This document shows, piece by piece, positions 63 to 33,447 of a stretch of 33,686 bases of DNA. Position numbers and translations under genes: made by a program. The notes beneath the pieces are model-generated. The model had not been told where the DNA came from, ran no database searches, and saw only the letters and a program-made list of their open reading frames with translations. Numbering within the stretch: the stretch's first letter is position 1; every line of letters begins with the position of its first letter. The stretch is from an uncultured Nitrososphaerota archaeon (GTDB lineage Archaea; Thermoproteota; EX4484-205; JAAOZO01): positions 1-33,686 of the forward strand of contig CAYOYV010000017.1 in the NCBI GenBank assembly GCA_964408285.1. Direction: 5' to 3'.

Positions 63-713
63 CTATGAGGCTATTTCGATTTTTGCTACTAAGGAATCGT
101 CTTCCTCAATAAGATCGGCCAATTTGACGTCCTTGACCTCCGGGACCGCAAAGCTGATTATCTTTCCCATTTTGGCTAAGTCCTCATGACAATTCTCAAT
201 CATCTCATCAGTACGATAGTTCTGTCCTATTACCCAAAGAATACGCATATTCTCATTACGCTGGATCATATACTTGATGCCTAACTCGTATTCGATAACT
301 ACATCCTTCTTAGGACTTGTGTTTGATTTCAAACGATCTGAAACCAACTTCTGAGCAAGACCGTCGATTTTCTTACTGTTTTTCGCGAGTTTCTCCCTAA
401 GTTTTTCGAGTTGATATGTCTCCCATGGTTCGTCGTGGGGGCCCTTTTCTCCTTTTTCGTAAAGCAGAAGGCCGATCCACTTAACACTGCCAATAGATAT
501 GGCAATAAGGTCATCGATGGTTTCTCTCGTTCGATTTGGGTGATCGAAACAGGCATATAGATGGTAGTGATATCCTCTTTCTAGATAGAAGCTCAGTAGT
601 TCCACACATGCCCTTACCGTCTTTTGTGTCCAAGATTTCCTTGACACAATCTCGCCCCTTTTTGAGGCCTCTTCTAAGAAACCATCACCTTTCCATAGAT
701 CCACTTTCGTCAT
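63..713 (-). CDS. Hypothetical protein, third gene of cassette A
   Basis: 216-aa ORF overlapping the end of the LAGLIDADG gene; no motif recognised. Confidence 0.7.
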   Translation of the reverse strand: MTKVDLWKGDGFLEEASKRGEIVSRKSWTQKTVRACVELLSFYLERGYHYHLYACFDHPNRTRETIDDLIAISIGSVKWIGLLLYEKGEKGPHDEPWETYQLEKLREKLAKNSKKIDGLAQKLVSDRLKSNTSPKKDVVIEYELGIKYMIQRNENMRILWVIGQNYRTDEMIENCHEDLAKMGKIISFAVPEVKDVKLADLIEEDDSLVAKIEIAS

Positions 714-1614
714 CTAGCCTCTTCTCCTTAACAATCTCCAGCGCTCTCTTTATAGCTTCCACATGTTGCTTCTTAAAGCTCCCTATTCCTCTGATGTACC
801 TGATCTTATCCCGCCGGGTCTCCACTGCTAATCGGAAAGTTCCATCTTTGCTGTCGTAAAGGCAAGAGCATATGTCAAAATTCTCTTTCAAGAGCGTTGC
901 AATCTCCTCTAACCCCTTTCTGTTTATTGAGTAAAAACGTACTTCAAGAGGAAGGGTTCTAAAATGATCGGATCTAGGATAAAGTCCTATGTTGCCATCG
1001 GCACTCATGAAGCATTTCAGGAATATCATAGCTGACTCCTTGTCGAGGTATTCGAATGGGACGTTCCAGTCCCCTGTCGCCTTCGGAGTATATTCATTCA
1101 AGTCTCTGACGATATCCTTACTTGCTTTAACTAGCTCGAAGAAATGCCGTCTCTCTTTATGAGGGTATTTGCCCATAGATACTCTATATGTTTCGTTCAT
1201 GAACTCTTGGAACTTCTCTAGAAGTTCGTCAGAACTGCTGCCATATCTGACTTGGTACTTGTGTCTCTTTGTGTTGTACATTAAGCTTCCATCCGAGCTG
1301 ATGAAGGCTATCATTCCAGCTTTTGCTGGCGAGAGGATCTCTCTAACTGCTGTGGCGGAAACCTCCAAGAGCATTCCTTTTTCTAGCTTGAATAAGGCCC
1401 GGTCCTCTAAGATGGTTTTTGCCTCCTTATACGTACCTATGATCTCGTTACCTTTTCTCAATATGTATCCGTTGTCCCCAATCTCAATATCATAGTCTCC
1501 TATGCGCACGTGCTCAACGGATATCGACTCCGAGCATAACAACTCGTGCGATTGAACTTCCTCGCCTAAGCCAAACCTGCTTTCGACTTGAGCTAGCCTC
1601 TTTCCTGATCCCAT
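685..1614 (-). CDS. Free-standing double-motif LAGLIDADG (DOD) homing-endonuclease-like protein
   Basis: Motifs AGMIAFISSDGSL and FLKCFMSADGNI, followed by typical segments VRYGSSSDELLEKF and VRFYSINRKGLEEIATLL; no intein splice motifs seen. Confidence 0.85.
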   Translation of the reverse strand: MGSGKRLAQVESRFGLGEEVQSHELLCSESISVEHVRIGDYDIEIGDNGYILRKGNEIIGTYKEAKTILEDRALFKLEKGMLLEVSATAVREILSPAKAGMIAFISSDGSLMYNTKRHKYQVRYGSSSDELLEKFQEFMNETYRVSMGKYPHKERRHFFELVKASKDIVRDLNEYTPKATGDWNVPFEYLDKESAMIFLKCFMSADGNIGLYPRSDHFRTLPLEVRFYSINRKGLEEIATLLKENFDICSCLYDSKDGTFRLAVETRRDKIRYIRGIGSFKKQHVEAIKRALEIVKEKRLDDESGSMER

Positions 1615-2735
1615 CTATCTAACCTCTGAATTGTCTGCAGCAGGTTGTGAAGAGCGAGGGATTTCCTATCTTCCTTAAGTTCATAAGCGCTTCTACCCTT
1701 GCAAGCATCACAATCGCATTCTTCGAACCTCACATCCGTGTCTGTAAGAAAGAATGAATTGACGCCCCTAAAGTATAGCCCCTTCCTTGCACTGAGGAAC
1801 CAAGATAGCCCAGAGTAGACGAACCTTTCTTTCGATTTCATCAGAGGATACGAAAGACCATAGAGCAATATTCGTATGTCACTCTCGCTGCTGTGGAGTG
1901 CCCTCATAATAGTCATCACCACATTGTCGATGAGGTCAAGTCTGGCGAGTTCGCGGCAGGGTAGGGCAAATAGTCGACAACCCAGTTGGAATTGCTTTTC
2001 AGCTGACCACCCTATTTGATTCTCCAGGGCTCCTTTGATCATACCTATTACTGGAATGTCAAGTTCAGAAAAAGAAGTGGCAAATTCAACACTTCTCATT
2101 GTTTGTTGCCAAGATAGGCATAAGGGATCGTCTAGGTAAGTGTAGACATCAGGAGTCATGGTCATGTCAGGTCGGACGTTTTTGATTATCTCAAGGTAAT
2201 CCCTGGGAGCCAGCTTCTCAAGGAGTTCATCCTCCATTACTGTCGATAGTAGAATATCGCCCTCAAAACCCAGAAAGCTGTGAAGTCCTTCAGAGGATAC
2301 CGTTTGCAGGAGAGTTCTGTTCTTGACAAGCTCGGCTAATCTAACCGCGACCCATCGAAGAGGAATATCTTGCCAGAACCACGACTTTTTATCAATCAGA
2401 GAAATTACTGGAACGAAGGTAGGGAGATTGGTCGTAGACTTCACCCTAAGACGAGGCATGTCCTGGATCTTGACGCTGGGATGAATCCTACCCAACGAAC
2501 TGCAGTATTCACGTATTGTACAGAATTCCTTGGGGTGTGTGATTCCAACGTAAGTTGTTCCGCGCTTGCACTTGGCTACCAAACAATCGCGAGTAATGCA
2601 ACCCGGACAATACCCACGGAATAACTCGCAATCAAGACACTTCTTACCGCATTTTCCATGGGTTTTCAATAATAGTGGGATGTAAAGCTGAGGCATATAA
2701 GGCATGAGCACACGCGCGCGAAGCGAAGTTACCAA
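1593..2735 (-). CDS. Divergent tRNA-guanine transglycosylase (TGT/DpdA)-like protein with N-terminal 9-Cys domain
   Basis: C-terminal TGT zinc motif CDCDAC...LALHNL; barrel segments TPDVYTYLDDP, PVIGMIKG, ILLYGL, YSGLSW. Confidence 0.75.
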   Translation of the reverse strand: MVTSLRARVLMPYMPQLYIPLLLKTHGKCGKKCLDCELFRGYCPGCITRDCLVAKCKRGTTYVGITHPKEFCTIREYCSSLGRIHPSVKIQDMPRLRVKSTTNLPTFVPVISLIDKKSWFWQDIPLRWVAVRLAELVKNRTLLQTVSSEGLHSFLGFEGDILLSTVMEDELLEKLAPRDYLEIIKNVRPDMTMTPDVYTYLDDPLCLSWQQTMRSVEFATSFSELDIPVIGMIKGALENQIGWSAEKQFQLGCRLFALPCRELARLDLIDNVVMTIMRALHSSESDIRILLYGLSYPLMKSKERFVYSGLSWFLSARKGLYFRGVNSFFLTDTDVRFEECDCDACKGRSAYELKEDRKSLALHNLLQTIQRLDRWDQERG

Positions 2736-2824
2736 ACGGCATGCGAGTGCAAATTATCAACTGAGATAATAGACGATGTTCAACCACTCTTCGCAAAAAC
2801 GCTGCTAAGACGAAGCCTATTAAT

Positions 2825-2838
2825 GAAAAGCTTAAAAT
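2825..2838 (+). promoter_or_regulatory. BRE/TATA promoter of tRNA-Ser
   Basis: GAAAAG-CTTAAAAT, with the TATA element starting 33 nt before the tRNA 5' end; similar spacing at Thr (4688), Trp (~9434), Ile (12640), Ala-CGC (14799) and Ala-TGC (~29806). Confidence 0.65.
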
Positions 2839-2863
2839 CGACTGAACCATTCTTTCAACGAGT

Positions 2864-2963
2864 GCGAGGGTCTCCTAGCCTGGTAGAGCCGAGCGCCAAT
2901 GGAGCAAGCCTGCTAAGCTTGTGACCCTTACGGGTCTCCCGGGTTCGAATCCCGGCCCTCGCG
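2864..2963 (+). tRNA. tRNA-Ser(GCT) with 14-nt D-loop intron (2887-2900)
   Basis: Acceptor GCGAGGG/CCCTCGC, anticodon arm CAAGC-CTGCTAA-GCTTG, long variable arm GACCC/GGGTC, GTTCGAATC; BHB helix TGGT/GCCA with AGA and ATG bulges. Confidence 0.93.
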
Positions 2964-3046
2964 TCCTCGAGAGGGACGACCCAATACAACTCTCTAATGT
3001 TGACGTTCTTTCTCCTTCAGTTTCAAGCTAATCTTCCGGAAGAATT

Positions 3047-4540
3047 CTAACCGACCTTCTTCCATCTAACACCATCTACTGTGTCCTCCAAGATTATTCC
3101 AAATTCATCCCTCAGGCGTTTCCTTATTGAGTCAGCAGTCTGATAATCCTTTCTTTTCCTCGCCTCTTCCCTCTCTTCTATCAATGCACTGACGTTTGGT
3201 GGAATTCGACCTTCTCTAACCGCGCGTTTCAAATCCAGGCCGAGGACCCGATCGAACGCCAGCATGGTGGCAACTAGCGTCCTAGCATCTTTCTTACTCA
3301 TATCTTTGGCATCGATGAGACGATTGACTTGTTTCATGAAATCGAACAATGAAGCCAATGCCTTTGGCGTATTCAGATCATCATTCAATGCGTTAGTGAA
3401 TTCTGCTTTTTCTTTTTCAACCAGAGCCTCGAACTTTCGGTTTGATCTGTTGCCGTGAAAATCATTCAGTCTACGGATGAAGTCATAGAAAGAGTTCAGA
3501 GCATGTTGGGCCGCATCCAAAGCCGGAAATGTGAAATTGAGCTGACTTCTATAGTGGGCCTGCAAGTAGAAGAACCGTAGGGCCAGCGGGTCATACCCCC
3601 TTGTGACGATATCGTTAAGGGTGAAGTAGTTACCGAGGGACTTCGCCATTCTCTTTCCCTCTGATATCAAATGGGCACAATGTATCCAGTACTTTACGAA
3701 TTTCTTACCAGTTGCTGCCTCAGATTGCGCTATTTCATTTGTGTGATGTATCGGTATATGATCCACGCCACCACAATGTATATCGAAGCTTTCTCCGAGG
3801 TATTTCATCGACATAGCCGAACATTCAATATGCCAACCGGGGAAGCCAACTCCCCAAGGCGAGTTCCACTCCATGTCTCTCCTCTGGTCTCTGGGGGAGA
3901 ACTTCCATAATGCGAAATCGTATGGGTTTCTCTTCTGTGGATTGACTTCTATCCGGGCCCCCGGCATTAATCCCCCTAGTCTGAGTCTGGCTAGCTTGCC
4001 GTAATCCTTCAGCTTCGAGGTATCAAAATAAACTCCATCGTCTATTACGTAGGTAAATCCTCTCTTCTCCAGTCTCTGAATCAGCCTAATCATATCCTTG
4101 ATGTGCTTCGTTGCTTTCGGAGTGAAACGTGGCGATTTTATGTTCATCCTCTTAGAGTCCTCGAAGAACTCTCTGGTGTAGAATTCTGCTATCTCCCACG
4201 CGGTTCTCCTATCTCGCTTGGCCCCTACCTCCATCTTATCCTCTCCGGTATCTGCGTCTGATGTCAGATGCCCAACGTCCGTTATGTTCATTACATGTTT
4301 GACCCTGAATCCATTCAATTCAAGAACTCTCCTCAGTACGTCTTCGGAGACATAGGTCCTCAGATTCCCTATGTGAGCATAATCATAGACCGTAAGACCA
4401 CAAGCGTAGAGTCTTATCCGTTTGTCTTTCAGAGGCCTTACCGCTTCCTTTTTCCTACTCATGGTATTGAAGATCCTAAGCGGACTTATCTTGCGTTTCA
4501 TAATGGCAGCCCTAGTTCGCATAGTTGGCCTTTCACTCAT
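3047..4540 (-). CDS. cysS: Cysteinyl-tRNA synthetase
   Basis: CGLTVYDYAHIGN, DFALWK, PGWHIECSAM, DIHCGGVD, RMAKSLGN; the true start may be a later Met. Confidence 0.97.
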   Translation of the reverse strand: MSERPTMRTRAAIMKRKISPLRIFNTMSRKKEAVRPLKDKRIRLYACGLTVYDYAHIGNLRTYVSEDVLRRVLELNGFRVKHVMNITDVGHLTSDADTGEDKMEVGAKRDRRTAWEIAEFYTREFFEDSKRMNIKSPRFTPKATKHIKDMIRLIQRLEKRGFTYVIDDGVYFDTSKLKDYGKLARLRLGGLMPGARIEVNPQKRNPYDFALWKFSPRDQRRDMEWNSPWGVGFPGWHIECSAMSMKYLGESFDIHCGGVDHIPIHHTNEIAQSEAATGKKFVKYWIHCAHLISEGKRMAKSLGNYFTLNDIVTRGYDPLALRFFYLQAHYRSQLNFTFPALDAAQHALNSFYDFIRRLNDFHGNRSNRKFEALVEKEKAEFTNALNDDLNTPKALASLFDFMKQVNRLIDAKDMSKKDARTLVATMLAFDRVLGLDLKRAVREGRIPPNVSALIEEREEARKRKDYQTADSIRKRLRDEFGIILEDTVDGVRWKKVG

Positions 4541-4720
4541 TGACTTACGGGTCCGGGAGCGGCCGTTATATCACTTTCTAATGGATTGAACTTGACTCAG
4601 GCATGAGATAGCGCGTCTGCTTTTCTTAAGGGCTCCAGTCGCGCGAGCCTGAAACCACGGGCTGGGTGATAGTACGAGTCCATATGATTTAAAAATTGGG
4701 CAACTACAGTCAAGAAGCGA

Positions 4721-4824
4721 GCCCTGGTAGCTCAGTCGGTAGATCATTGGGCCGAAAGCAACGGCCTTGTACGCTCGCCACATAAGAGAGCCGTCGGTCG
4801 GGAGATCGAGACTCCCCCAGGGCT
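4721..4824 (+). tRNA. tRNA-Thr(TGT) with two introns (4743-4756 D-loop; 4772-4788 at 37/38)
   Basis: Acceptor GCCCTGG/CCAGGGC, anticodon stem ACGGC/GCCGT; BHB helices CGGT/GCCG and CTTG/TAAG; T-loop reads ATCGAGA. Confidence 0.92.
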
Positions 4825-4941
4825 CCTTTAGCAAATGAGCTCTACTATCGATACTCACAACGGAGCCTCTTTCGAAAGTCTTGGACCCAGCCTTGCTCTG
4901 CAAGATGCATTTATTTTTCCAGTGCGCTTCTTAACGCTAGG

Positions 4942-5871
4942 ATGGAACTACCGGAAAACACTTCTTGGCCAAGGAGGCTTTTCATCAGACAATATTTCAA
5001 GAACCACGCTGAAACATTGGACTTCTACCTATTTCTACTCAAGCTCGGCCGCCTTTGGCGCCCAATTGATTGGGTAGTCAAGGAGGGTCTTGGCAGATAT
5101 ATGTCGGAGAACCTTCATTCTACTGTAGTCCTGCCCCTTGAAGAAATGATGGAAGTGATCGATGTTGTCAAGCAAGTCTCGGTCTCACGGTGCATTTGTA
5201 GGGTTCACTACCATAATTGCAGTCAAGATACATGGACATGCCTCTTCGTGAATTCAGGCGCCGAGGAGCATGCTAAGGTTGAAAACAGGTATAACAAGAT
5301 ATTGACTAAGGAAGAGGCAAAAGACATCCTGAAGAGGGCCTATGACAAGGGCCTCGTGGTTAGTCTCGACTGGTGCGTCTATCCCTATACCTATGGGGCC
5401 TGTTGTTGCTGCAGGGATTGTTGTGTCCCAATGAGAATGCGACTGGACTATGGTCTGGGCGTTGCGATGACCAGGACCCACCAACCAGTTATGGTTGGCC
5501 AGTGCACCAATTGCCGTTTGTGTGTATCAAGGTGTATCTCTCAGGCAATAACTCTAGCTGAAGAACCAGAATTTGACCAGAAAAAATGCATCGGATGCGG
5601 GCAGTGCTCATACATATGCCCTGAGGGAGCAATACAAATGCAAAGGATTGCACCGATCTTCCAAAAGTCGGAGCTTTCGACACTGAGGCTGGGTTTCAAC
5701 TTCGCTTTTTTCACTGCTTTGGTCCTTCCGGGACTGCTGGTCTACATACTGGTGAACAGGATCATATTAAGCAAATATCCAAGGGATGAATTCACAGAAC
5801 ATGGGACAGACGCTCACAGTTCCTTATCTGTACATGAATATCCCCTATCCATCCAACAGACTGATCAATGA
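4942..5871 (+). CDS. 4Fe-4S dicluster (ferredoxin) domain protein with C-terminal hydrophobic helix
   Basis: CTNCRLCVSRC and CIGCGQCSYICP motifs, plus CICR and CCCCRDCC clusters. Confidence 0.85.
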   Translation: MELPENTSWPRRLFIRQYFKNHAETLDFYLFLLKLGRLWRPIDWVVKEGLGRYMSENLHSTVVLPLEEMMEVIDVVKQVSVSRCICRVHYHNCSQDTWTCLFVNSGAEEHAKVENRYNKILTKEEAKDILKRAYDKGLVVSLDWCVYPYTYGACCCCRDCCVPMRMRLDYGLGVAMTRTHQPVMVGQCTNCRLCVSRCISQAITLAEEPEFDQKKCIGCGQCSYICPEGAIQMQRIAPIFQKSELSTLRLGFNFAFFTALVLPGLLVYILVNRIILSKYPRDEFTEHGTDAHSSLSVHEYPLSIQQTDQ

Positions 5872-5958
5872 TGGCTCCTTCATACTCAATGAAAGATCCA
5901 TGATGACCAAGGATCAAAATCAGCAAGGGGGGATTGTTTCTACGCAAACAAGCACTCT

Positions 5959-7014: not shown

Positions 7015-7046
7015 ATACTATAATGGTGCTTGGTAGAAGATAAGCT

Positions 7047-7622
7047 TCACTTCGGACTGCCTTCTCCGTCATCAGTCCTGCTTAGTAGCACCTTGCCTCT
7101 GGTGGATGGAGATATGACAAATCTGGGATTCTCGAATCTCAGTTCTAGCTCTTTGCCTTCATATAACCTGTCGAGAAATAGGCTCAGGGCCGATATTTCA
7201 GAATGGGGTTGCCCCGTTATGGCCAGATTGAGATCTGCCAATTGATAAGCCTCCCATGGCACTTTCTTCCCTCCCACGACTAAGAGGATCTTCGAACTGA
7301 CCCTCCTCACCTCGTCCATGTATTTCTCAAATGGGAGTCCATACATCGTAAGGTGAACAATCAGACATCCCTCGCCCTTCAGTCCCTTGACCAGGGTTTC
7401 CCAATCTTTTACCAACTCTGCCCTGAAGTGTCCTCCCCATTTGTCGACGACTTCCCTAATGCTCATTAGCAGACTCTCGTCCGGATCCCCTTGGATGAAG
7501 ATTCCTTGAGCTCCCAATGCCCTCGCTGCCAAAGCCAAGTGCGTTGTGACCCGTTTGTCTCGGAATGCCCTATGCCCCAACCTTAAGACAAGAACCTCCG
7601 GCCCGCTCAGAGTATTCTCCAT
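7047..7622 (-). CDS. trm56: tRNA (cytidine-56-2'-O)-methyltransferase
   Basis: VLRLGHRAFRDKRVTTH, VHLTMYG, QPHSEISAL (archaeal SPOUT family). Confidence 0.95.
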   Translation of the reverse strand: MENTLSGPEVLVLRLGHRAFRDKRVTTHLALAARALGAQGIFIQGDPDESLLMSIREVVDKWGGHFRAELVKDWETLVKGLKGEGCLIVHLTMYGLPFEKYMDEVRRVSSKILLVVGGKKVPWEAYQLADLNLAITGQPHSEISALSLFLDRLYEGKELELRFENPRFVISPSTRGKVLLSRTDDGEGSPK

Positions 7623-7636
7623 GTTCCATTACCTCC

Positions 7637-8086: not shown

Positions 8087-8140
8087 GTCCCCTCTTTCTC
8101 TCAAACAAGTTTTTATCTCTAATATCCAAGCACCCATCAA

Positions 8141-8959: not shown

Positions 8960-8977
8960 CTAGAGAGCACCCAGCTA

Positions 8978-9223: not shown

Positions 9224-9310
9224 ATTACTTCACCATAATAGGGCCTTAAGCGTGAGGTTATAAGAATTGCTCGAGGGCCGAGTGCAAAATTCGGTTTTAC
9301 TCGATCGGAA

Positions 9311-9466: not shown

Positions 9467-9647
9467 GGGGGTATGGTCTAACCAGGCAAGACGATAGTAG
9501 AAGACCCGTCAAGGGCTCCAGCCAGAGAAATGGTTTTTCCGACCTTGCAAAAGGGATGAGGTGAGGTTGGAGCTGGGTGAGACCCATTTAAGGGAGTTCA
9601 AGCATAGGGTCCGAAAGGCCCCTGCGGAAAAGATCTCCCTACCCCCA
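9467..9647 (+). tRNA. tRNA-Trp(CCA) with three introns (9496-9512 at 28/29; 9522-9581 at 37/38; 9602-9632 in T-loop)
   Basis: Acceptor GGGGGTA/TACCCCC, D-stem GTCT/AGAC, spliced anticodon stem ATGGG/CCCAT, T-stem GGGAG/CTCCC, spliced T-loop TTCAAAT. Confidence 0.88.
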
Positions 9648-9723
9648 CATACACCAAAGGATTTATGGTATGCCAGTAAGTTGTATGACATAAATCCTGC
9701 CCTTCTGCTGCATTATTCGAAAG

Positions 9724-10182
9724 ATGTCCCCTTCATTTGAGAGTCAATCCGTAATCCCCCTAGTATTGCTGAGTGACCAAAGAACCTGGATTCACCGGTA
9801 CATTAGGCCGAATTCCTTGTTGGTCCCGTTCTATGATGTTTGGGGAGATAGCAATACTCGGGCCATCGCGAGTCGTCATAGGGACATTCACGATCTCTTG
9901 GGTTTCAGGGGTCCAATAGGCCTTTCGAGCATAGGTCCTGACGATTATGTCGTGAGCGAGGCCTACTTCTCGGATTTCGTCAGATTTTCAACGGAGAGCA
10001 ATTTCGATTACGTAGTGGCTTGGGATATGCCAACGTACGCCGACTGGCCTTCGGATATCTCCTTCAAAAACACGATGTGGAAGATTTATCAAGAGTATAA
10101 GGAAAAGAAGCTAACCAAAGAGGACATAAAGGAAATCAAAGGGAGATCAAGATCGCTCCAATCTAACGTCATACTTCTCTAA
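9724..10182 (+). pseudogene. Internally deleted cassette remnant: TGT-like fragment fused to LAGLIDADG-like C-terminus
   Basis: DIHDLLGFRGPIGLSSIGPDD..FDYVVAWDMPTYAD matches 31618-33447 (DIHSYLNFEGNILLSSIMPDE..FDGAIAWDSPAYAD); KIYQEYKEKKLTKEDIKEIK matches the tail of 30269-31621 (RLYEVYTKYRGRKLTDEEIQDIR). Confidence 0.8.
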
Positions 10183-10494
10183 GAATTCTTCCAGATCCTG
10201 AGGAGACTTGGCGAACAGAGCAGGCTTCCAATTGCCATCTTTCCCGGCTACCACCCACTTCATGACTCTTTCGGCATGGTACATCAAGAATGCCAACTCG
10301 CGAGTATCCCTAATCATGATCCCGCGATCCTTGAGAAACTTTAGCATTTCTTCTTCGTTGATGTAGTCTTTCCTGTAATGCAGGAATAAGTCTTCAAAGA
10401 GTTGTCTGACATCTTTATCAGAGGGCCCTTTGATGTCTCTTGCTTTCACCAATGCCAGAGTCTTTAATGAGGACTGAAATATAAGCACTCCCAA
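10147..10494 (-). CDS. Small protein, probable distant homolog of the cassette-B third gene
   Basis: LFEDLFLHYRKDYINEEEMLKFLKDRGI aligns with LVSEAFNHYGRHKLFENEFIKYFRGKGM. Confidence 0.6.
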   Translation of the reverse strand: MGVLIFQSSLKTLALVKARDIKGPSDKDVRQLFEDLFLHYRKDYINEEEMLKFLKDRGIMIRDTRELAFLMYHAERVMKWVVAGKDGNWKPALFAKSPQDLEEFLEKYDVRLERS

Positions 10495-10563
10495 TTCTAA
10501 TAATGTCCTCGAAAACGCCTACTGCGAATCTCCCTACCCTCACAATCACGTCAGGGATACGAC

Positions 10564-12670: not shown

Positions 12671-12817
12671 GGGCCGGTGGCCTAGCAACTCACAAAGATG
12701 AGCTAGTGTGGTTAAGGCGTCTGCTTCAAAGGACGATGCTGATAACCAAAGGCCGAGACCAGAAGATCGGCGGTTCGAAAGCCGTCGAAGGCATCGGAAA
12801 TCCGCCCCGGCCCACCA
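12671..12817 (+). tRNA. tRNA-Ile(GAT) with four introns (12688-12708, 12724-12737, ~12745-12757, 12780-12800); CCA encoded
   Basis: Acceptor GGGCCGG/CCGGCCC; after splicing: D-arm GCCTAGCATGGTTAAGGC, anticodon arm TCTGG-CTGATAA-CCAGA, T-arm GGCGG-TTCGAAT-CCGCC. Confidence 0.87.
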
Positions 12818-12948
12818 TCCCTATAATGAAATCGAACTGACAAATTGCATCTCAAACCTTTATTTCAGGTCTTTCGTGATCTCTTCTTAGTTCTTCAGAT
12901 GTTGGCGACTTTGTTTGTTTCGGAGTTTTTTTGAATCCGCGAGCTTGT

Positions 12949-13200
12949 CTAATCTTCTTCCCTGCCCACCAATTCAAACACAGTTTTGTGACCTATTATT
13001 TTCAATGGATTACCAGGTTCCCAGATTGGCTTTACTCCGATCGTTATAATATTCATTGCATCTGCCTCAATCCAGAGTTCATCTGTCTTCTCCTTGTTCA
13101 TTCCCTTGTTTTGGAAGTACTTCATAAATTCCTCTTTGAACAACTTGTTTCTGCCAAGATGTTGAAACGGCTCTTTTACTAGGGCTTCTATTTTTTCCTT
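12949..13200 (-). CDS. Small cassette-B protein (paralog of 30021-30272); start codon uncertain
   Basis: NIITIGVKPIWEPGNPLKIIGHKTVF vs NIITIGVKPLWEPGHPLNIIGQKTVF. Confidence 0.7.
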   Translation of the reverse strand, partial: KEKIEALVKEPFQHLGRNKLFKEEFMKYFQNKGMNKEKTDELWIEADAMNIITIGVKPIWEPGNPLKIIGHKTVFELVGREED

Positions 13201-14408
13201 TCTATCTTTCTTCTTATTTCGTCCACGTCTTTTCCCCACTCTATGTCTGGAAACAGTTCCTGCGTTTTTCGGCTTATCCAATCTATGCTTATGTCTGCAG
13301 GGTTTTCCTCTTTAATCTTTCTCAGCTCCTGAATTTCCTCGTCGGTGAGCTGCCTTCCTCTGTATTTCACGTAAGCTTGATATAGCCTTTCAAATCTCTC
13401 GGCCTTCCACGTGCCAGGCAGCAACCCATATTCATCGTGAATGATATCTATCAGGTGCGGCCTACTAGTTCGAACCTCCCAAAACGTTGTCACCCTACCG
13501 TATCTACTAACGTGAACCTTTGTGGGGGTTTCCCTAGGCCATTTTGCGTCCATGTGAGAATTACTCAATAGGGCTAATTCCTGATCAAGCAATCGGGGAG
13601 AAAGCCCTTTGACCGCCCTTAGAATCTCAGGATCTGTTATGCGTCGAATTGGTATCTTGCTTCCGTGTTCTTCCTCAATCCGTCTAAGCTCGTCTACCTG
13701 CATACTCGCGAGCCCGTCCGTTATGTCGACAGAGCGGCCCCATGCTATCCCAAGTCCTGCTCTTCTCTGCTTATTGACCGTCAGATAGAACCCCCCTTCT
13801 TCGTTGAGGGTAGCTTGAACATGATAACAGGTCATCCCTGAATCCCTTGCCATCTGAGGATCAAGCGAGGGATTGCTGACGGTCTTCTTACCACGCGGGA
13901 GACCCGAGGCTTCTAAGGCCCTTCCGAGAACAGAATTGGCAAAGATTTCCAAGGTGCGATGACCTAAGATGACTTCCTTAAGACTCGGTCCCCAGATTCC
14001 TTAACAGTGTCTGCGAAATGCTTAAGCATGACAGGATCTTGGTTGCTGTGGCTCAGCAAGCGTTTCTGCGTGATCGTTCCTTCGTTGAGGGCATGGGTCT
14101 TCATCTTAAGAAAACCTCTGCATTTCATGTCTATCGGGTAAGGATGTGGTTGTAAGATCACACCTCGTCTTTCGATTTCGTCTGGGCTGATCTTGAACCG
14201 GTCGCAAAACCGCTTAAGAGCGCCCACATTCATAGTTGTTTTTGTACGATCAACCAAATTCCGGTAGAGAGTTCGATCAGACTTATTCGATACTTTCTCT
14301 CTTAAGAAGCTTTTGATGTCGTAGTACCCGCACTCTCTCATCCCGCGTTCTATGATTCCCTGTACGTAGCTAGAATCAACCGTAACATGAGCCAATTTGG
14401 GCTCATCT
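13188..14408 (-). pseudogene. Frameshifted, N-truncated HTH-LAGLIDADG-like gene
   Basis: ORFs 13964-14530 and 13188-13952 together align to 30269-31621 (SNQDPV, GRALEASGLP, SNPSLDP, IDIIHDEYG.LPGTWKAERFERLY). Confidence 0.88.
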
Positions 14409-14583
14409 TGTCCAAATGGCAAATGTCGCATTCTTCTATGGCCTTCACTACTGGTGGCTTGAGTTCGCACCCCAAGAGTGGACAACGGTAGCCATGAGAT
14501 TCTATTCCATAGGATTCGAGACCGCCACAAATCTCAGCTATGAGGCAGACTCTGCAATCTCTATCGCATCCTGAAACTCTCAA
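14409..14583 (-). pseudogene. Remnant 8-Cys N-terminal domain of the cassette-B TGT-like gene
   Basis: GCDRDCRVC..ICGG...GYRCPLLGCEL...ECDIC matches the N-terminus of 31618-33447. Confidence 0.88.
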
Positions 14584-14827: not shown

Positions 14828-14916
14828 GGGCCGGTAGTCTAGCTTGGTACGGACGCTGGCTTCGCATTTCTGCCAGAAAAAGCCAGAGGTCGCGGGTTCG
14901 AGTCCCGCCCGGTCCA
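14828..14916 (+). tRNA. tRNA-Ala(CGC) with ~14-nt intron at 37/38 (14867-14880)
   Basis: Acceptor GGGCCGG/CCGGTCC with G3:U70, anticodon stem CTGGC/GCCAG, GGTTCGAGTCC. Confidence 0.92.
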
Positions 14917-16739: not shown

Positions 16740-17111
16740 AATCACGAATCGAACAGCTTTCTGAGCTATGAGTATTGCGCTCAACATCTAAGTCGACGAC
16801 ATCGAGTCGGTCCGTTTCCTCGACGCGCGTTGGAACAAAACCTGAGAACGGGACCATGGACATGAACTCCTTTCTTATTGAGGGCATGTTAACGCCTCAT
16901 CGTATGTGATTACCACCTTTGGACAGTAAGACCTGACCATGCAAACTGAACGAGGATAGGTGATTCCGCTATAGCATGCACCTTTCAAGCATAGTGAGAC
17001 TACACAATTCCGGGTAGTACAACCGAAGCACGAATTCTCAAAATAAGGACAACTGCGGCATCTTATTCCGCACTCTCCGTTCTCCTTCAACGACTTAGTG
17101 ATTTCTACCAT
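16740..17111 (-). pseudogene. Remnant of cassette subtype A downstream of tRNA-Leu
   Basis: 16875-17111 aligns ungapped with the N-terminus of 1593-2735 (26/56 identities by hand, all 9 Cys). The frameshifted continuation MPSIR..FVP resembles MPRLR..FVP. Left boundary is approximate. Confidence 0.75.
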
Positions 17112-17295: not shown

Positions 17296-17424
17296 TGCGG
17301 GAGCTGGGAATTTCAGGGGCTGTCCCCTTTGAACCCAGGAACCCCTTCGGGACAGGAGCCTCAGTCCTGCGCCTTAGACCTGGCTTGGCGATTCGGATAG
17401 GCATACTAAGTGCCTAACTCCCGC
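17296..17424 (-). tRNA. tRNA-Leu(GAG) with introns at 7/8 (17392-17417) and 59/60 (17310-17327)
   Basis: Acceptor GCGGGAG/CTCCCGC, anticodon arm CAGGA-CTGAGGC-TCCTG, long variable arm; BHB helices CGGG/TCCG and TTCA/TGAA. Confidence 0.9.
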
Positions 17425-29839: not shown

Positions 29840-29929
29840 GGGCCGGTGGTTTAAAGGTAGAATACCCGACTTGCACTCGGGAGGCCTAGGGGTTCGAGAT
29901 GGTTGGTCCCGAAAATCCCCTCCGGTCCA
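29840..29929 (+). tRNA. tRNA-Ala(TGC) with T-loop intron at 59/60 (29899-29915)
   Basis: Acceptor GGGCCGG/CCGGTCC with G3:U70, anticodon arm CCCGA-CTTGCAC-TCGGG, BHB helix TTCG/CGAA. Confidence 0.9.
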
Positions 29930-30020: not shown

Positions 30021-30272
30021 CTAGTCCTCTCCTTTTCCCACTAGACTGAACACGGTCTTCTGACCAATAATGTTCAATGGATGGCCGGGTTCCCATAGGG
30101 GTTTCACCCCGATCGTTATGATATTCAAACTCTGCGCTTTGGCCCAGAGTTTATCTATTTCGTCATCTCTCATTCCCTTACCTCGGAAGTACTTGATAAA
30201 CTCGTTTTCAAACAACTTATGTCTTCCATAGTGGTTAAACGCCTCTGACACGAGTGCTTTGATTCTCATCAT
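30021..30272 (-). CDS. Small cassette-B protein (~83 aa), possibly winged-helix
   Basis: ATGA overlap with the upstream stop; conserved with the 12949 copy. The fold is a guess. Confidence 0.75.
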   Translation of the reverse strand: MMRIKALVSEAFNHYGRHKLFENEFIKYFRGKGMRDDEIDKLWAKAQSLNIITIGVKPLWEPGHPLNIIGQKTVFSLVGKGED

Positions 30273-31621
30273 TTCCTCTGCAGCATTCGCTTTATTCTTT
30301 CTATATCCTCTGCCCACTCTGTCCCTGGGAAGAGCTTCTGCGTTTTCTCGCTTACCCAAGCCGCACTTATATCAGGCGGGTTTTCTTCTTTAATCTTTCT
30401 GATGTCCTGAATCTCCTCGTCCGTGAGCTTCCTGCCTCTATATTTCGTGTAGACCTCATATAGCCGCTCGAACCTTTCAGCCTTCCAAGTGCCCGGGAGC
30501 ATTCCATATTCATCATGAATTATGTCAATCAGGTCAGACCTCAGGGTATGGATCTCCCAAAACGATGTCACTCTGTGACCCGTGCTGACATGAACTCTCG
30601 TTGGATGTTCTTCAGGCCATTCCTTCTCCGGGTGAGAAGTTTCCAACAGAGCCAATTCTTGGTGTAATGGTCGTGGGGGTTTCTCCTTTATTATCCTCAG
30701 AATTTCAGGGTCCTCTATACTTCGGATGGGTATCTTCCTTCCGTGTTCTTTCTCCGTCTTCCGAAGTTGTTCAATCTGTTCGCTCGAGAGTTCGTCAGTT
30801 ATGTCCACCGCTCGGCCCCACGCTATCTCGAACCTCGCTCTTCTCTTATGAACACCTAGGGAATGCCACCCTTCCTCGGTGAGGGCAGCTTGGATGTGAT
30901 AGCGCTTTGACTTTGGATCTTTTTCCACCATCGGATCAAGGGAAGGATTACTAATGGTCTTCCTACCACCCGGGAGACCTGAAGCCTCCAGAGCCCTCCC
31001 GAGAGCACTATTAGCTTCAATTTCCATTGCACCCGGCCTCAAACGGGGTTTTGTGATGATGATTCCTCCTGCTTCCCTGACCGCATCCGCAAAATACTTG
31101 AGCAGGACAGGATCTTGGTTGCTGTATTTTAGCCTGTTTTTTGAAGAGTTCGTTCCTTCGTCGAGGATGTGGGTCCTCATCTTGACGAAACCTCTAGATC
31201 TCATGTTAATTGGGTAGAAATGCGGTTCTGAGATAACTCCTCGTCGTTCGATCTCATTCAAACTAATGTTAAGTTGCTCACAAAACCTTCCAAGAACGCC
31301 TACAGTTACGGCTTTTTCCTTCTTATCGATCCATCTCTTGTAAAGAACCCGATCTCCCCTCTTCAATCCCTTCTCTCTAAAGAAATCACTGATGCTCGTA
31401 GCTCCTGATCTCTTCATCTCGCGTTCTATGCTTTGTCTGACGTAACTAGAATGGATGGTGATGCGTGTCATTTTCGGCTCGTCATACCAGTGATAGTATC
31501 CGCTCGATTCTACCTCCTTCTTCTCACGTCTAATTGCTTCGAAAAATTCCGCCCTAGATTGCCTAGATCCATAACGACTGAGTTTCCATCTGAGCGCGAG
31601 CCGGAATTGCCCCAACCTCAC
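30269..31621 (-). CDS. HTH + divergent double-motif LAGLIDADG-like endonuclease
   Basis: HTH-like VTVGVLGRFCEQLNISLNEIE; motif-like KMRTHILDEGT..LKYSNQDPVLLKYF and YHIQAALTEEGWHSL. Confidence 0.65.
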   Translation of the reverse strand: MRLGQFRLALRWKLSRYGSRQSRAEFFEAIRREKKEVESSGYYHWYDEPKMTRITIHSSYVRQSIEREMKRSGATSISDFFREKGLKRGDRVLYKRWIDKKEKAVTVGVLGRFCEQLNISLNEIERRGVISEPHFYPINMRSRGFVKMRTHILDEGTNSSKNRLKYSNQDPVLLKYFADAVREAGGIIITKPRLRPGAMEIEANSALGRALEASGLPGGRKTISNPSLDPMVEKDPKSKRYHIQAALTEEGWHSLGVHKRRARFEIAWGRAVDITDELSSEQIEQLRKTEKEHGRKIPIRSIEDPEILRIIKEKPPRPLHQELALLETSHPEKEWPEEHPTRVHVSTGHRVTSFWEIHTLRSDLIDIIHDEYGMLPGTWKAERFERLYEVYTKYRGRKLTDEEIQDIRKIKEENPPDISAAWVSEKTQKLFPGTEWAEDIERIKRMLQRK

Positions 31622-33447
31622 TCTCTCCGCTTTATCTCTATCCTACCATCCCCCGTGAGCACAATTGAGGTACCAATATCCTCCTTCTTCACTTGTATCC
31701 ATTCCTGAGGGCCTCCTAGAGTCCAGCAACCTGTCGAAGCCACGCACTTGTCTTTGTCTATGAACGCCCTAAGCAGATGTCCCATTATTAGCCAACTCGC
31801 GTTGGCTTCTCTCCTAGCATCCTCCATCTTGTCCATCTCCACATCAGTGATTTTGGTAGGATCCCTGACTATCCTATGACCATGTTCCGCAATCACTACC
31901 TCTCCGTTGGCCAGCTTTATGACAAGACTTTCTTTCGCGGACCTGTAGAACCTATAGATATCGAGGATTGTTTGCTGTAAGGCTTCGTCGTTCCGCTTGT
32001 TCCAAAGTATTGGCTTGGGTTTGCCTCCCATCGTTAAGGTATCTAGGGCTGACAGAAGCTGCTCTTGATTGCCATCGCTGCATCCTTTGACGACCAAGAC
32101 TGAAGCTCCTATTTCCCTCAGCACCTTGAGCAAGATACCGGCTTCGGCCAAATCCGGAGTGCCGCTCTCGAGATCAAACGTATTTCCTAAGAACACAACA
32201 TAAGGTGGTTTCTCGTCTCTTAAGAATGCCATTAGGTCGTCCAGTAGGGCTCTGCCAGTCCATAGGTAAATATCAGAAACGAAAAGGGCTCTTTCACTCC
32301 TATCTAAGATCAGATCATAGGTCTGTACATCAGGAGATAGAGTGCCTGAAGACAGATTGGCGAGATAACTAAGATTGTGTTTGGTCTTCGCCCCAAGACT
32401 TGCCATTAATCCCTTAGGCCCAGTGCTGGTGCAAATATGGCATCTACATTCAACAAACTTAGAAGTGGCATCAATATTGCCCCTGTTAGAGTAGAGAATA
32501 CCTGCTTCGGCATCTAAGTGCCAACTGAAACCGGCTACGGATAGTTTCGGGGGCTCAAAGAAGGTCTGCCTGACGAATGCGAGCGAGGAAGGCTTCATAA
32601 CGCCGATTAACAGAACAGAATCCGCTAACTTCCGCATATGCCTGAAATATGTATAGAGGATCTGCCTCGCAGCACCATCCATCTTGATCCTAGGCATGTA
32701 CTCTGAGGCATGAAGAGCCATGGACTTTATCCCGCTCTTGGCAAGTATTCTTGTGCTGAATTCGATCTGCCTCTCTGCGTTTCCTTTGACCAGACCTATT
32801 ACGGGTATCTCGTCCTCGATCAATTCATGGGTGAGTAGGAGTCCTTTCATCAGATTGATCCAAGCGTCATACAACGGGATATCAGCATACGCAGGGGAAT
32901 CCCACGCTATGGCCCCGTCAAAGCCACCCTGTTTTATCATCTTCATGAAATAATGGAAGACACTTGGTTCCGTGAGGAATTCATCTGGCATTATTGAAGA
33001 AAGAAGTATATTGCCCTCAAAATTGAGGTACGAGTGAATATCTCCGGCCTGAGAAACACTTCTCAATAAACCTGCATCGAATAGCTCTTCGAATCCGATT
33101 ATGACAGCTCCAATGTCGAGAGAATCCCAGCAAAAACTCGATGGATTCCTTAGGGATATCATAGGAACAACCTTCGGTAATTCGATCGGCCGAGCTCTCA
33201 ATTCCTCGATATCTACCACTTGAGAAACGAGATCAGAAACCTCTTGAGGACTCAGGTCCCATGTAATCCTGCCTAAACGGCAAAGGCTACATTCATGCAT
33301 CTTAATCATGGCCGGGGTTTCGAGTTCGCATCCAAGGAAGGGGCACCGGTAGCCACGTGACTCCAGCTCGTAGGCTTCACGACCACCGCAAATACCGATG
33401 ATCGCGCATGTCCCACAATCTCTATCGCATCCGGCAAGTCTCAACAT
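31618..33447 (-). CDS. Cys-rich + TGT-like barrel + degenerate calcineurin-like metallophosphoesterase fusion
   Basis: 8-Cys N-terminus; PVIGLVKG, VAGFSW, CRCHIC...KHNL; then FVSDIY, FLGNTFD, KGCSD, EHGH, MGHLL. Confidence 0.78.
   Translation of the reverse strand: MLRLAGCDRDCGTCAIIGICGGREAYELESRGYRCPFLGCELETPAMIKMHECSLCRLGRITWDLSPQEVSDLVSQVVDIEELRARPIELPKVVPMISLRNPSSFCWDSLDIGAVIIGFEELFDAGLLRSVSQAGDIHSYLNFEGNILLSSIMPDEFLTEPSVFHYFMKMIKQGGFDGAIAWDSPAYADIPLYDAWINLMKGLLLTHELIEDEIPVIGLVKGNAERQIEFSTRILAKSGIKSMALHASEYMPRIKMDGAARQILYTYFRHMRKLADSVLLIGVMKPSSLAFVRQTFFEPPKLSVAGFSWHLDAEAGILYSNRGNIDATSKFVECRCHICTSTGPKGLMASLGAKTKHNLSYLANLSSGTLSPDVQTYDLILDRSERALFVSDIYLWTGRALLDDLMAFLRDEKPPYVVFLGNTFDLESGTPDLAEAGILLKVLREIGASVLVVKGCSDGNQEQLLSALDTLTMGGKPKPILWNKRNDEALQQTILDIYRFYRSAKESLVIKLANGEVVIAEHGHRIVRDPTKITDVEMDKMEDARREANASWLIMGHLLRAFIDKDKCVASTGCWTLGGPQEWIQVKKEDIGTSIVLTGDGRIEIKRRE

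What the first reader, a model, noticed from the sequence alone, without database searches (positions are those of the whole stretch)
63..33447. Multi-copy, tRNA-linked cassette family: Cys-rich TGT-like protein + LAGLIDADG-like nuclease + small protein
Seen: five copies in 34 kb (63-2735, 9724-10182, 12949-14583, 16740-17111, 30021-33447). Each lies within about 250 nt of a tRNA gene, and together they touch 6 of the 8 tRNAs. They fall into two subtypes with different Cys domains and different nucleases but the same gene order and overlapping reading frames. I saw no integrase, transposase or duplicated tRNA end. Known: TGT-fold proteins exchange guanine for 7-deazaguanines in tRNA (TGT/ArcTGT) or DNA (DpdA), and LAGLIDADG enzymes drive homing. 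I know of no described system pairing them at tRNA loci. Inference: a selfish homing element targeting tRNA genes, or a modification-sensing or modification-writing defence module that repeatedly inserts and decays.
Basis: partly seen in the sequence, partly recalled or inferred. Interest (0 to 1): 0.92.

Follow-up and report, generated by a model that had tools for sequence, protein, structure and literature searches.

The report
tRNA-targeting mobile cassettes in Brockarchaeota
The window holds two intact and three decayed copies of a small mobile gene cassette, with no known recombinase, that inserts beside transfer-RNA genes of one archaeal lineage and appears not to have been described.

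Summary
The window is a whole contig of a Brockarchaeota-type archaeal MAG. It carries two intact cassettes (63-2735, 30021-33447), three decayed ones and eight tRNA genes, mostly with introns. Six tRNAs lie 74-245 nt from a cassette.

Gene 1 has a TGT fold (Foldseek against ArcTGT, E 2e-15). It keeps the zinc motif but lacks the nucleophile Asp, and it has an N-terminal CxxxCxxC domain. Gene 2 is a double-motif LAGLIDADG endonuclease in both subtypes. Gene 3 varies; in one subtype it matches no solved fold.

- **tRNA link:** 8 of 10 loci in this genome lie within 352 nt of a tRNA, against 4% of long ORFs. In relatives it is 33 of 51 loci within 250 nt; chance gives about one.
- **Flanking repeats:** Window cassette B has a 22-nt one.
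- **Mobility:** a 2.9-kb unit is 93% identical between two families while its flanks are unrelated. Occupied and empty sites exist.

No integrase, transposase or terminal inverted repeats were found.

Best reading (0.55): a homing-endonuclease element that uses tRNA sequence as portable homology arms. The TGT-fold protein's role is unknown.

The parts
1593..2735 (-). A1: TGT-fold protein (380 aa) with an N-terminal Cys-rich CxxxCxxC domain; core gene of intact cassette A
   Evidence: AF2 model and Foldseek: ArcTGT 1iq8 E 2.2e-15, TMq 0.63. Profile against PDB: 1iq8 E 2.3e-5. PADLOC 'TGT' E 6e-8. Pfam TGT and DUF4417 hits fall below the cut-off.
685..1614 (-). A2: double-motif LAGLIDADG endonuclease (309 aa); its start overlaps the end of A1
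   Evidence: Pfam LAGLIDADG_3, 37.7 bits against a cut-off of 22.5. The D-G of both motifs is conserved in 16 homologues.
63..713 (-). A3: third gene (216 aa), member of the g3 family; function unknown
   Evidence: It aligns over its full length with 17 homologues. The AF2 model of the family representative L022:2667-3341 has pLDDT 93.7. No PDB match at E<=0.001.
2864..2962 (+). tRNA (probably Ser, read by eye), 129 nt upstream of A1 and divergent from it
   Evidence: My finder scores it 8.0. The Rfam tRNA-Sec model gives 29 bits, E 0.066. Sequence read.
9467..9650 (+). tRNA with several introns, directly upstream of cassette B
   Evidence: Finder score 10. An orthologue with similar introns is present in L003.
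9633..9654 (+). Left copy of the direct repeat that bounds cassette B (3' end of the tRNA)
   Evidence: 19 of 22 identical to 10528-10549. blastn-short gives 17 nt at 94%, E 0.002.
9724..10182 (+). B1: fragment of a TGT-fold gene (152 aa); remnant of a C4-type cassette
   Evidence: 50% identical to the TGT gene on contig C4 and 30% to E1.
10147..10494 (-). B3: small gene (115 aa), homologue of the gene that ends the C4 cassette
   Evidence: 49% identical to C4:38632-38925.
10528..10549 (+). Right copy of the direct repeat that bounds cassette B
12671..12818 (+). tRNA with several introns; its 3' end lies 131 nt from the end of cassette C
   Evidence: Finder score 7. A clear orthologue is present in L003.
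12949..13281 (-). C3: homologue of E3 (110 aa)
   Evidence: 54% identical to E3.
13188..14530 (-). Split homologue of E2, in two ORFs (13188-13952 and 13964-14530): a broken LAGLIDADG-like gene
   Evidence: 65% and 51% identical to E2.
14350..14583 (-). Remnant of the E1-type gene: the Cys-rich N-terminus only
   Evidence: tblastn with E1 residues 2-62, 54% identity.
14828..14916 (+). tRNA with one intron, 245 nt from cassette C
   Evidence: Rfam 52.8 bits; ARAGORN.
16875..17111 (-). D1: remnant of an A1-type gene (78 aa, Cys-rich domain only)
   Evidence: 46% identical to A1 residues 23-78.
17297..17424 (-). tRNA (Leu GAG, read by eye) with introns; its 3' end lies 186 nt upstream of D1, same strand
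   Evidence: Finder score 7. Sequence read.
29840..29928 (+). tRNA (Ala UGC, read by eye) with an intron in the T loop; its 3' end lies about 90 nt from the end of cassette E
   Evidence: Rfam 31.3 bits. Finder score 9.5.
30021..30359 (-). E3: small third gene (112 aa); function unknown
   Evidence: ORF. Paralogue at 12949-13281. No Pfam, PADLOC or PHROG match.
30269..31621 (-). E2: LAGLIDADG-like protein (450 aa) with an N-terminal extension
   Evidence: hhalign against the A2 family: probability 78.5%, E 1.7e-5, with both motifs aligned. The homologue in L034 has HTH_26 and LAGLIDADG_3 at 21.6 bits, cut-off 22.5. 21 of 30 Atlas feature hits are LAGLIDADG_3 clusters.
31618..33447 (-). E1: TGT-fold protein fused to a C-terminal calcineurin-like phosphoesterase domain (609 aa), with its own Cys-rich N-terminus
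   Evidence: 30% identical to A1. E1 itself has no Pfam hit. Among 10 homologues from loci, Metallophos_2 is above its cut-off in 3 and at E<0.01 in 8. 17 of 31 database homologues carry a precomputed PF12850 annotation.

Best explanation
These are copies of a compact mobile element of about 2.8-3.5 kb, without integrase or transposase, found so far only in Brockarchaeota-type archaea. It inserts at the 3' side of tRNA genes.

The element has three genes:
- a TGT-fold protein with a Cys-rich CxxxCxxC N-terminus;
- a double-motif LAGLIDADG endonuclease;
- a small third protein.

Proposed mechanism:
1. The LAGLIDADG enzyme cuts a cassette-free tRNA locus.
2. The break is repaired from an occupied copy.
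3. Because tRNA sequence is conserved between species, the full tRNA on one side and the duplicated tRNA 3' segment on the other serve as portable homology arms.
4. The cassette and the tRNA are therefore copied together into a new genome without destroying the tRNA.

Once no empty sites are left, copies decay. That gives the fragments at 9724-10182, 12949-14583 and 16875-17111.

The TGT-fold protein is the constant partner. Its likely role is to bind tRNA-gene DNA or tRNA, for targeting or for protecting the resident site.

Shown: the element is discrete, mobile, linked to tRNAs and flanked by tRNA-derived repeats, and the folds of genes 1 and 2 are as stated. Inferred: that LAGLIDADG cleavage drives the insertion, and any role of genes 1 and 3.
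For: **tRNA linkage**
- In this genome 8 of 10 loci lie within 352 nt of a tRNA, against 4.2% of long ORFs.
- In relatives 33 of 51 loci have a tRNA within 250 nt. The distal flanks of the same loci hold 7 tRNAs in 207.5 kb.

**Flanking repeats**
- 11 of those 33 loci have a direct repeat of the tRNA 3' end (21-81 nt, 92-100% identical) at the far cassette boundary.
- The four loci re-examined have repeat spacings of 2776-2866 nt.
- The only inverted matches, in 2 loci, are not at cassette ends. No terminal inverted repeats were found.
- Window cassette B has a 22-nt repeat of this kind.

**Occupied and empty sites**
- In G007 the tRNA and its conserved flank are 3474 nt apart, with a 2860-bp element between 42-nt perfect repeats. 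In G009 they are 508 nt apart with no cassette.
- In G002 the two tRNAs after aRF1 are 38 nt apart, against 2015 nt in the window with cassette C between them. The tRNA-to-UMP-kinase gap is 53 nt, against 918 nt with cassette B.

**Horizontal transfer**
- L011 (family f1) is 92.6% identical to L014 (family f4) over exactly 2914 bp, running from the tRNA to a degenerate tRNA fragment. Its flanks are f1-like (53-73% aa identity to G000).
- The adjacent tRNA is 99-100% identical across the two families.

**Copy number and decay**
- 0-20 matches per genome, many with stops or truncated.

**Nuclease**
- A2 is LAGLIDADG_3 above the Pfam cut-off, and the D-G of both motifs is conserved.
- E2 is related to it.

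**No recombinase**
- Pfam, PADLOC and PHROGs find no integrase or transposase in the cassette genes.
Against: - No cleavage or target site is shown.
- The tRNA next to the cassette stays intact, so a target inside the tRNA would persist in occupied alleles. Some immunity mechanism is then needed, and I cannot identify one.
- Direct repeats that include a tRNA 3' end are the classic mark of integrase-type site-specific integration, not of homing.
- 22 of the 33 tRNA-adjacent loci in relatives, and window cassettes A, C, D and E, show no repeat. Cassette A runs into the contig end.
- E-type loci in relatives showed no adjacent tRNA: 0 of 7 by my finder and by Rfam at E<=1.
- One clade (L020 and L027) shares a flanking protein gene across two families at similar identity, which looks like vertical descent.
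- Some cassettes carry an unidentified second gene in place of a recognisable LAGLIDADG (C8, C38, L036, L038-L040).
- All genomes are MAGs. My tRNA finder is home-made, with 1 false hit against 31 at score 8 or more on reversed sequence.
Confidence: 0.55

Rival explanations
1. It is a site-specific integrative element with an att site in the tRNA 3' end. It moves through a circular form by a recombinase that is either new (the TGT-fold protein, the third protein, or a complex of the three) or supplied in trans by the host or another element. On this reading the LAGLIDADG gene is a passenger or only a helper.
For: Direct repeats of 21-92 nt cover the tRNA 3' end and a few bases of trailer at both cassette ends. 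This is the classic attL/attR picture. The intact tRNA is restored, as in integrase-borne elements. The element size is constant, 2776-2866 bp.
Against: No tyrosine or serine recombinase, transposase or Cas1 domain was found in any cassette gene. At least ten different tRNAs are used, and cassette clades track the tRNA, so one helper acting in trans would need many specificities. The TGT fold catalyses base exchange at C1', not phosphoryl transfer (established knowledge of the family). No viral contig carries the family. In L029 the repeat runs 34 nt into the end of the third gene, which a simple crossover within the tRNA does not predict.
Confidence: 0.2
2. It is a defence or restriction-modification-like module. 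The TGT-fold protein writes or reads a base modification on DNA, as DpdA does, and the linked nuclease cuts DNA that lacks or carries the mark. On this reading tRNA neighbourhoods are only the usual hotspots where such islands land.
For: A1 scores best against the PADLOC 'TGT' model, E 6e-8. The constant TGT-fold gene is paired with varied second genes: two LAGLIDADG families and others unidentified. E-type proteins carry a phosphoesterase domain. Patchy copy number and decay also fit defence genes. An intact target in occupied alleles would call for protection of the modification kind.
Against: The position of the ArcTGT nucleophile Asp is not acidic and varies. No ParB-like DpdB partner and no preQ0 synthesis genes lie in the cassette. 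Apart from the TGT hit there are no meaningful PADLOC matches (one marginal hit, E 0.006, for the small gene B3). Precise tRNA-derived flanking repeats and co-transfer of the tRNA point to self-mobility and not to cargo of a larger island. The cassette stands alone, without other island genes.
Confidence: 0.12
3. They are ordinary host genes: expanded, vertically inherited paralogues that process or modify the neighbouring intron-rich tRNAs, kept next to their substrates.
For: The TGT fold is a tRNA-binding fold. Each cassette clade goes with one tRNA. The genome is rich in tRNAs with several introns. The L020/L027 clade looks vertically inherited.
Against: Presence/absence varies at syntenic sites. 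Copies are near-identical between families within unrelated flanks. There are 0-20 matches per genome with many pseudogenes, and 2 of the 17 genomes searched in genus g6 have none. Five of the 10 loci in this genome are reduced to gene fragments: B, C, D and the one on C14, plus a truncated TGT gene on C8.
Confidence: 0.05

Closest known systems
Free-standing homing endonuclease genes, for example phage T4 SegB in the tRNA gene cluster (recalled; SegB also appears in the abstract listed for PMC13096335)
   Same: An endonuclease gene lies between conserved genes and not inside an intron or intein. It is next to tRNA genes. Neighbouring markers are carried along, here the tRNA. Presence/absence is patchy and copies decay.
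   Different: This element has three genes and a constant TGT-fold partner. It is chromosomal and archaeal, not viral. It is bounded by duplicated tRNA 3' ends, which I do not recall being described for free-standing homing endonuclease genes. The nuclease is LAGLIDADG and not GIY-YIG.
Archaeal and bacterial integrative elements that target tRNA genes with tyrosine integrases, for example SSV-type or pNOB8-type (recalled; review PMC8371274 seen only in the listing)
   Same: Insertion is at a tRNA gene, the tRNA is restored, and a partial tRNA direct repeat is left at the far end.
   Different: No integrase of any known family is present. The element is only about 2.8 kb with three genes, none of them viral or plasmid replication genes.
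DpdA and the Dpd 7-deazaguanine DNA modification system, and the phage DpdA families (papers seen as listings and abstracts only; DUF4417-ParB fusions read as passages in bioRxiv 10.1101/2025.10.10.680097)
   Same: A TGT-superfamily protein is recruited outside tRNA modification into a mobile or conflict context. The best HMM match is the PADLOC 'TGT' model, with a weak DUF4417 hit.
   Different: There is no ParB-like partner and there are no preQ0 genes. The nucleophile Asp is not conserved. The protein has an added Cys-rich N-terminus and, in the E type, a phosphoesterase fusion. It is linked to a homing-type nuclease.
LAGLIDADG endonucleases in archaeal rRNA introns and inteins, for example I-DmoI (recalled)
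   Same: The same double-motif LAGLIDADG_3 type of enzyme, in archaea, aimed at highly conserved genes.
   Different: The gene is not inside an intron or intein, and the target gene is left uninterrupted.

Membership tests
TGT superfamily (ArcTGT/TGT, PF01702) | TIM-barrel TGT fold | tested here: met
   The AF2 model (core pLDDT mostly 74-97 per 10-residue block) matches ArcTGT 1iq8 at E 2.2e-15, TMq 0.63, followed by bacterial TGTs.
TGT superfamily (ArcTGT/TGT, PF01702) | C-terminal zinc site CxCxxC...H | tested here: met
   C340, C342, C345 and H363 are conserved in at least 90% of 20 sequences and align to the ArcTGT zinc motif.
TGT superfamily (ArcTGT/TGT, PF01702) | First catalytic Asp (ArcTGT D95; residue number recalled) | tested here: met
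   The invariant D196 aligns with the Asp of the ArcTGT 'FLDIPT' stretch.
TGT superfamily (ArcTGT/TGT, PF01702) | Nucleophile Asp that forms the covalent intermediate (ArcTGT D249; residue number recalled) | tested here: not met
   In the HMM alignment the Asp of 'LFDSAS' falls on L314 of the 'SWF-L/I' stretch. The next position varies (S, G, D, N, E, R) across homologues. The alignment is at 17-19% identity, so a shift of one residue cannot be excluded.
TGT superfamily (ArcTGT/TGT, PF01702) | Pfam gathering score | tested here: not met
   16.4 bits against 26.3 for A1, and no hit for E1. Some homologues carry a precomputed PF01702 annotation.
DpdA-type DNA transglycosylase system | ParB-like ATPase partner (DpdB) and preQ0 pathway genes in the locus | tested here: not met
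   No such domains appear in any cassette gene. The genome has one canonical ArcTGT elsewhere.
DpdA-type DNA transglycosylase system | 7-deazaguanine inserted into DNA | not testable with these tools
   Needs mass spectrometry of DNA.
LAGLIDADG homing endonuclease | LAGLIDADG domain above the curated score | tested here: met
   A2: PF14528 at 37.7 bits against 22.5. E2 is supported only indirectly: hhalign probability 78.5% and a homologue at 21.6 bits against 22.5.
LAGLIDADG homing endonuclease | Two motifs, each ending in an acidic residue followed by Gly | tested here: met
   D108-G109 and D206-G207 are conserved in 16 A2-type proteins. E2-type proteins have D/E-G at both aligned motifs.
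LAGLIDADG homing endonuclease | Cuts the cassette-free allele and is copied into it | not testable with these tools
   Only the outcome is seen: occupied and empty sites, and co-transfer of the tRNA.
Integrase-type tRNA-integrating element | Direct repeat of part of the tRNA at both ends | tested here: met
   11 of 33 tRNA-adjacent loci in relatives and window cassette B. Not found for window cassettes A, C, D and E.
Integrase-type tRNA-integrating element | Tyrosine or serine recombinase gene in the element | tested here: not met
   No such Pfam, PADLOC or PHROG match in any cassette gene.
Transposon with terminal inverted repeats | Terminal inverted repeats and a short target duplication | tested here: not met
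   The four best-bounded elements have no inverted repeats at their ends.

The most novel reading that the evidence does not exclude
The TGT-fold protein is a new kind of immunity or targeting factor for a homing element. It recognises the tRNA gene, as DNA or as a nascent tRNA-DNA structure, and either marks or shields a base. The element's own endonuclease then spares occupied loci and cuts naive ones. This would be a restriction-modification logic built on a tRNA-modifying fold. A corollary is that the unusual load of introns in this lineage's tRNA genes is a host counter-measure that breaks the element's target sites.
Probability: 0.15. Interest if true: 0.95.

Novelty: new variant of a known kind. 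Interest (0 to 1): 0.8.

Why it matters
This would add a new type of archaeal mobile element. It has no known recombinase, its constant core gene has a TGT fold, and it uses tRNA genes both as target and as portable homology. That may explain how it crosses between families whose other genes are only 30-55% identical.

It gives a concrete, testable agent for an old idea, recalled from Randau and Soll 2008 and not read here: that introns and splits in archaeal tRNA genes protect them from invading elements.

The nucleases may also be a source of new long-site specificities aimed at tRNA genes.

The third protein gives a confident model with no solved relative.

Tried and rejected
- **Complex prediction, A1 family with A2 family:** no answer (score 0.00, below the mark). 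This is evidence neither for nor against binding.
- **The look-up of sequencing runs:** no RNA holder listed, so nothing can be said on expression.
- **Read laying of four DNA runs on 1-20000:** only short, low-depth Logan contigs. Contigs bridge parts of cassettes A, B and D in other samples. A single contig of depth 3 in X2 joins 1147 to 2819, which would be a 1.7-kb deletion inside cassette A. I treat this as a weak hint only.
- **Atlas search with the Cys-rich N-terminus:** no usable hit.
- **AF2 on the Cys-rich N-terminus:** the model gives no confident structure for A1 residues 1-91.
- **g3 profile against PDB sequences and the g3 model against PDB folds:** nothing significant.
- **hhalign of E-type third genes against g3:** probability 0.4%, not related.
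- **Pfam on the C8 second gene and on seven long E-type second genes:** no family.
- **A3 against E3 and B3 against E3:** no similarity.
- **Repeat searches around window cassettes A, C, D and E and around the C4, C18 and C8 loci:** no tRNA-derived repeat.
- **Viral-contig scan:** none.
- **Literature searches and a term search in PMC4158269:** no description of a TGT-like plus LAGLIDADG element at tRNA genes. Supplements were not seen, and subscription journals are not covered.
- **ARAGORN's 'tRNA-Gln with a 1514-nt intron' on C26:** rejected as spurious, since it spans a coding gene.
- **Idea that the cassettes sit inside tRNA introns:** rejected. All lie outside the tRNAs.
- **Idea that the tRNAs in the window are cargo of the cassettes:** rejected for the window, because G002 has the orthologous tRNAs at the same syntenic sites without cassettes.

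Full report
**What the window is.** The window is the whole of contig C17 of a 1.82-Mb archaeal MAG. It carries ORFs that I read by eye, without a family search, as housekeeping genes: CysRS, aRF1, UMP kinase, SRP54, H+-pyrophosphatase and AsnRS/AspRS. Named homologues of the cassette proteins come from 'Candidatus Brockarchaeota' and 'Thermoproteota archaeon' MAGs.

**The tRNAs.** ARAGORN sees only 2 tRNAs in the window and Rfam 3 at gathering score, because most tRNAs here carry one to three introns. I combined relaxed Rfam scores, reading of the intergenic DNA and an intron-tolerant finder I wrote. At score 8 or more the finder gives 31 hits in the genome against 1 in reversed sequence; at 7 or more it gives 45 against 8. 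That is 8 of about 50 tRNAs in 1.85% of the genome.

**The five copies.**
- Cassette A (63-2735) and cassette E (30021-33447) are intact three-gene operons with overlapping frames.
- Their first genes are paralogues: 30% identity, E 2e-29.
- Cassette C (12949-14583) keeps only the N-terminal 60 residues of an E1-type gene, an E2 homologue split in two, and an E3 homologue.
- Cassette B (9724-10494) keeps 150 residues of a TGT-fold gene and a small gene. Both are about 50% identical to an intact cassette on contig C4.
- Cassette D (16875-17111) is the Cys-rich N-terminus alone.
- The genome has five more loci, on C18, C8, C4, C26+C38 and C14. C26+C38 is one gene cut by a contig break with a 55-nt overlap.

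**The proteins: gene 1.**
- A profile of 20 homologues finds only ArcTGT in the PDB (E 2.3e-5).
- An AlphaFold model matches ArcTGT (E 2.2e-15, TMq 0.63) and then bacterial TGTs.
- The zinc motif is conserved, and so is the Asp that aligns with the first catalytic Asp of ArcTGT. The position of the nucleophile Asp is hydrophobic, and the next position varies. I therefore do not file it as a working transglycosylase.
- Its best HMM match is the PADLOC 'TGT' model (E 6e-8).
- All paralogues seen begin with a Cys-rich domain that holds a CxxxCxxC motif. The model is not confident there.
- E-type proteins add a calcineurin-like phosphoesterase domain.

**The proteins: genes 2 and 3.**
- Gene 2 of the A type is a LAGLIDADG_3 protein with both D-G motifs conserved.
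- Gene 2 of the E type is related to it: hhalign E 1.7e-5 with both motifs aligned, a homologue just under the Pfam cut-off, and Atlas feature hits.
- Other loci carry unidentified second genes.
- Gene 3 of the A type gives a very confident model (pLDDT 93.7) with no PDB relative.
- E-type third genes are unrelated to it.

**tRNA linkage.**
- In this genome 8 of 10 loci lie within 352 nt of a tRNA, against 35 of 828 long ORFs.
- A scan of one genome per species found 51 loci. All were in Brockarchaeota-type MAGs, apart from one 2.9-kb contig labelled Fervidobacterium.
- 33 of the 51 have a tRNA within 250 nt of the cassette. The distal flanks hold 1 tRNA per 29.6 kb, so about one locus would be expected by chance.
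- Two arrangements dominate, and both put the cassette at the 3' side of the tRNA. In one the tRNA is followed by the TGT gene on the same strand. In the other the third gene ends 8-45 nt from the 3' end of a convergent tRNA.
- A third arrangement, the Gly group, has the tRNA just after the LAGLIDADG gene.
- Seven E-type loci in relatives showed no adjacent tRNA. One of them lies 320 nt from the SRP RNA gene.

**Mobility: distribution.** The family was found in 23 of 41 related genomes. All but one weak match lie in the same order. There are 0-20 matches per genome and many broken copies.

**Mobility: syntenic comparison.** In G002 (same family; aRF1 66% identical) the two tRNAs after aRF1 are 38 nt apart. 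In the window they are 2015 nt apart with cassette C between them. The tRNA-to-UMP-kinase gap is 53 nt in G002, against 918 nt in the window with cassette B.

**Mobility: transfer between families.**
- In a tree of the short TGT proteins, the copy from G003 (family f1) nests within family f4 copies.
- At the DNA level it is 92.6% identical to the G021 copy over exactly 2914 bp. The stretch runs from the tRNA to a degenerate tRNA fragment.
- Its flanks are unrelated to those of G021, and both encode proteins 53-73% identical to G000.
- The adjacent tRNA is 99-100% identical in two f1 and three f4 genomes.

**Mobility: flanking repeats.**
- 11 of the 33 tRNA-adjacent loci carry direct repeats of the tRNA 3' end plus a few trailer bases at the far cassette boundary. 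They are 21-81 nt long and 92-100% identical, and several are perfect.
- The four loci re-examined have repeat spacings of 2776-2866 nt.
- There are no terminal inverted repeats.

**Mobility: an empty site.** G009 has the empty site of the G007 element. The tRNA lies 508 nt from the conserved flank, against 3474 nt in G007 with a 2860-bp element between 42-nt perfect repeats.

**Mobility: cassette B.** In the window, cassette B has a 22-nt repeat of this kind.

**Mechanism.** The data show a discrete element that lands beside tRNA genes, restores or preserves the tRNA, and can cross between families. The only recognisable DNA-cutting enzyme is the LAGLIDADG protein, and no recombinase is present. 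I therefore favour break-induced copying, that is homing. The tRNA and the duplicated tRNA 3' segment would act as homology arms that work in any host with that tRNA.

This accounts for three things:
- the sharp limits of the transferred unit;
- the co-converted tRNA;
- the link between cassette clade and tRNA identity.

It does not explain how occupied loci escape re-cutting. That gap makes a protective or targeting role for the TGT-fold protein attractive, but such a role is only inferred.

The flanking repeats equally fit site-specific integration by an unknown recombinase, which is the main rival. A defence module and a host tRNA factor are less likely, for the reasons given under the rivals.

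**Limits.**
- All genomes are MAGs.
- tRNA calls rest partly on my own finder.
- The closest relatives are 66-70% identical in aRF1, so empty-site comparisons for the window itself are at the level of gene order.
- Supplements of papers were not available.
- The papers named were seen as search listings, abstracts or passages only, as stated in each field.

Noticed in passing
whole genome G000; window tRNAs at 9467-9650, 12671-12818, 17297-17424: Most tRNA genes of this genome carry introns, several at non-canonical places such as the D loop and the T loop. ARAGORN finds 21 tRNAs and Rfam 20, out of roughly 50. The window tRNA at 12671 has one more intron than its orthologue in G002.
   Followed up: partly
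window 9467-9650 against L003:7119-7290: This tRNA is inverted relative to its flanking genes (NAC and UMP kinase) when compared with G002. That suggests a local rearrangement tied to cassette B.
   Followed up: no
L038:9157-9472 and L009:4890-5314: One E-type cassette in a relative lies about 320 nt from the SRP RNA gene. One A-type cassette lies on a short contig that ends in the 3' part of the 16S rRNA gene. Other conserved RNA genes may also be targets.
   Followed up: no
window 1147-2819: One low-depth contig of run X2 joins 1147 to 2819 with 16 other letters between them. This would be a 1.7-kb deletion that removes most of A1 and half of A2 in another sample. It rests on a single contig of depth 3.
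   Followed up: no
window 1-62 and 33448-33686; C26 and C38 ends: Both intact cassettes sit at the two ends of the contig, and another cassette gene is cut by a contig break with a 55-nt overlap. Assembly breaks at these elements may reflect strain-level variation.
   Followed up: partly
L047 (2950-bp contig labelled Fervidobacterium sp.): A complete A-type cassette with an adjacent tRNA (found by my finder) sits on a short contig binned to a bacterium. This is probably a binning error and not a transfer to bacteria.
   Followed up: no
A2-type and E2-type proteins, first ~15 residues (window 1570-1614 and 31580-31621, minus strand): A2-type proteins and the E2 homologues in relatives start with a similar short motif, MG followed about 8-10 residues later by ER-R/x-F/Y. 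The window's own E2 shows it only weakly. It could be a docking peptide for the TGT-fold partner.
   Followed up: no
L014:3341-3405 and 6163-6227: In the Gly-tRNA group a 65-nt copy of the 3' end of the LAGLIDADG gene lies beyond the third gene (92% identical). This hints at an earlier tandem or rearranged cassette.
   Followed up: no
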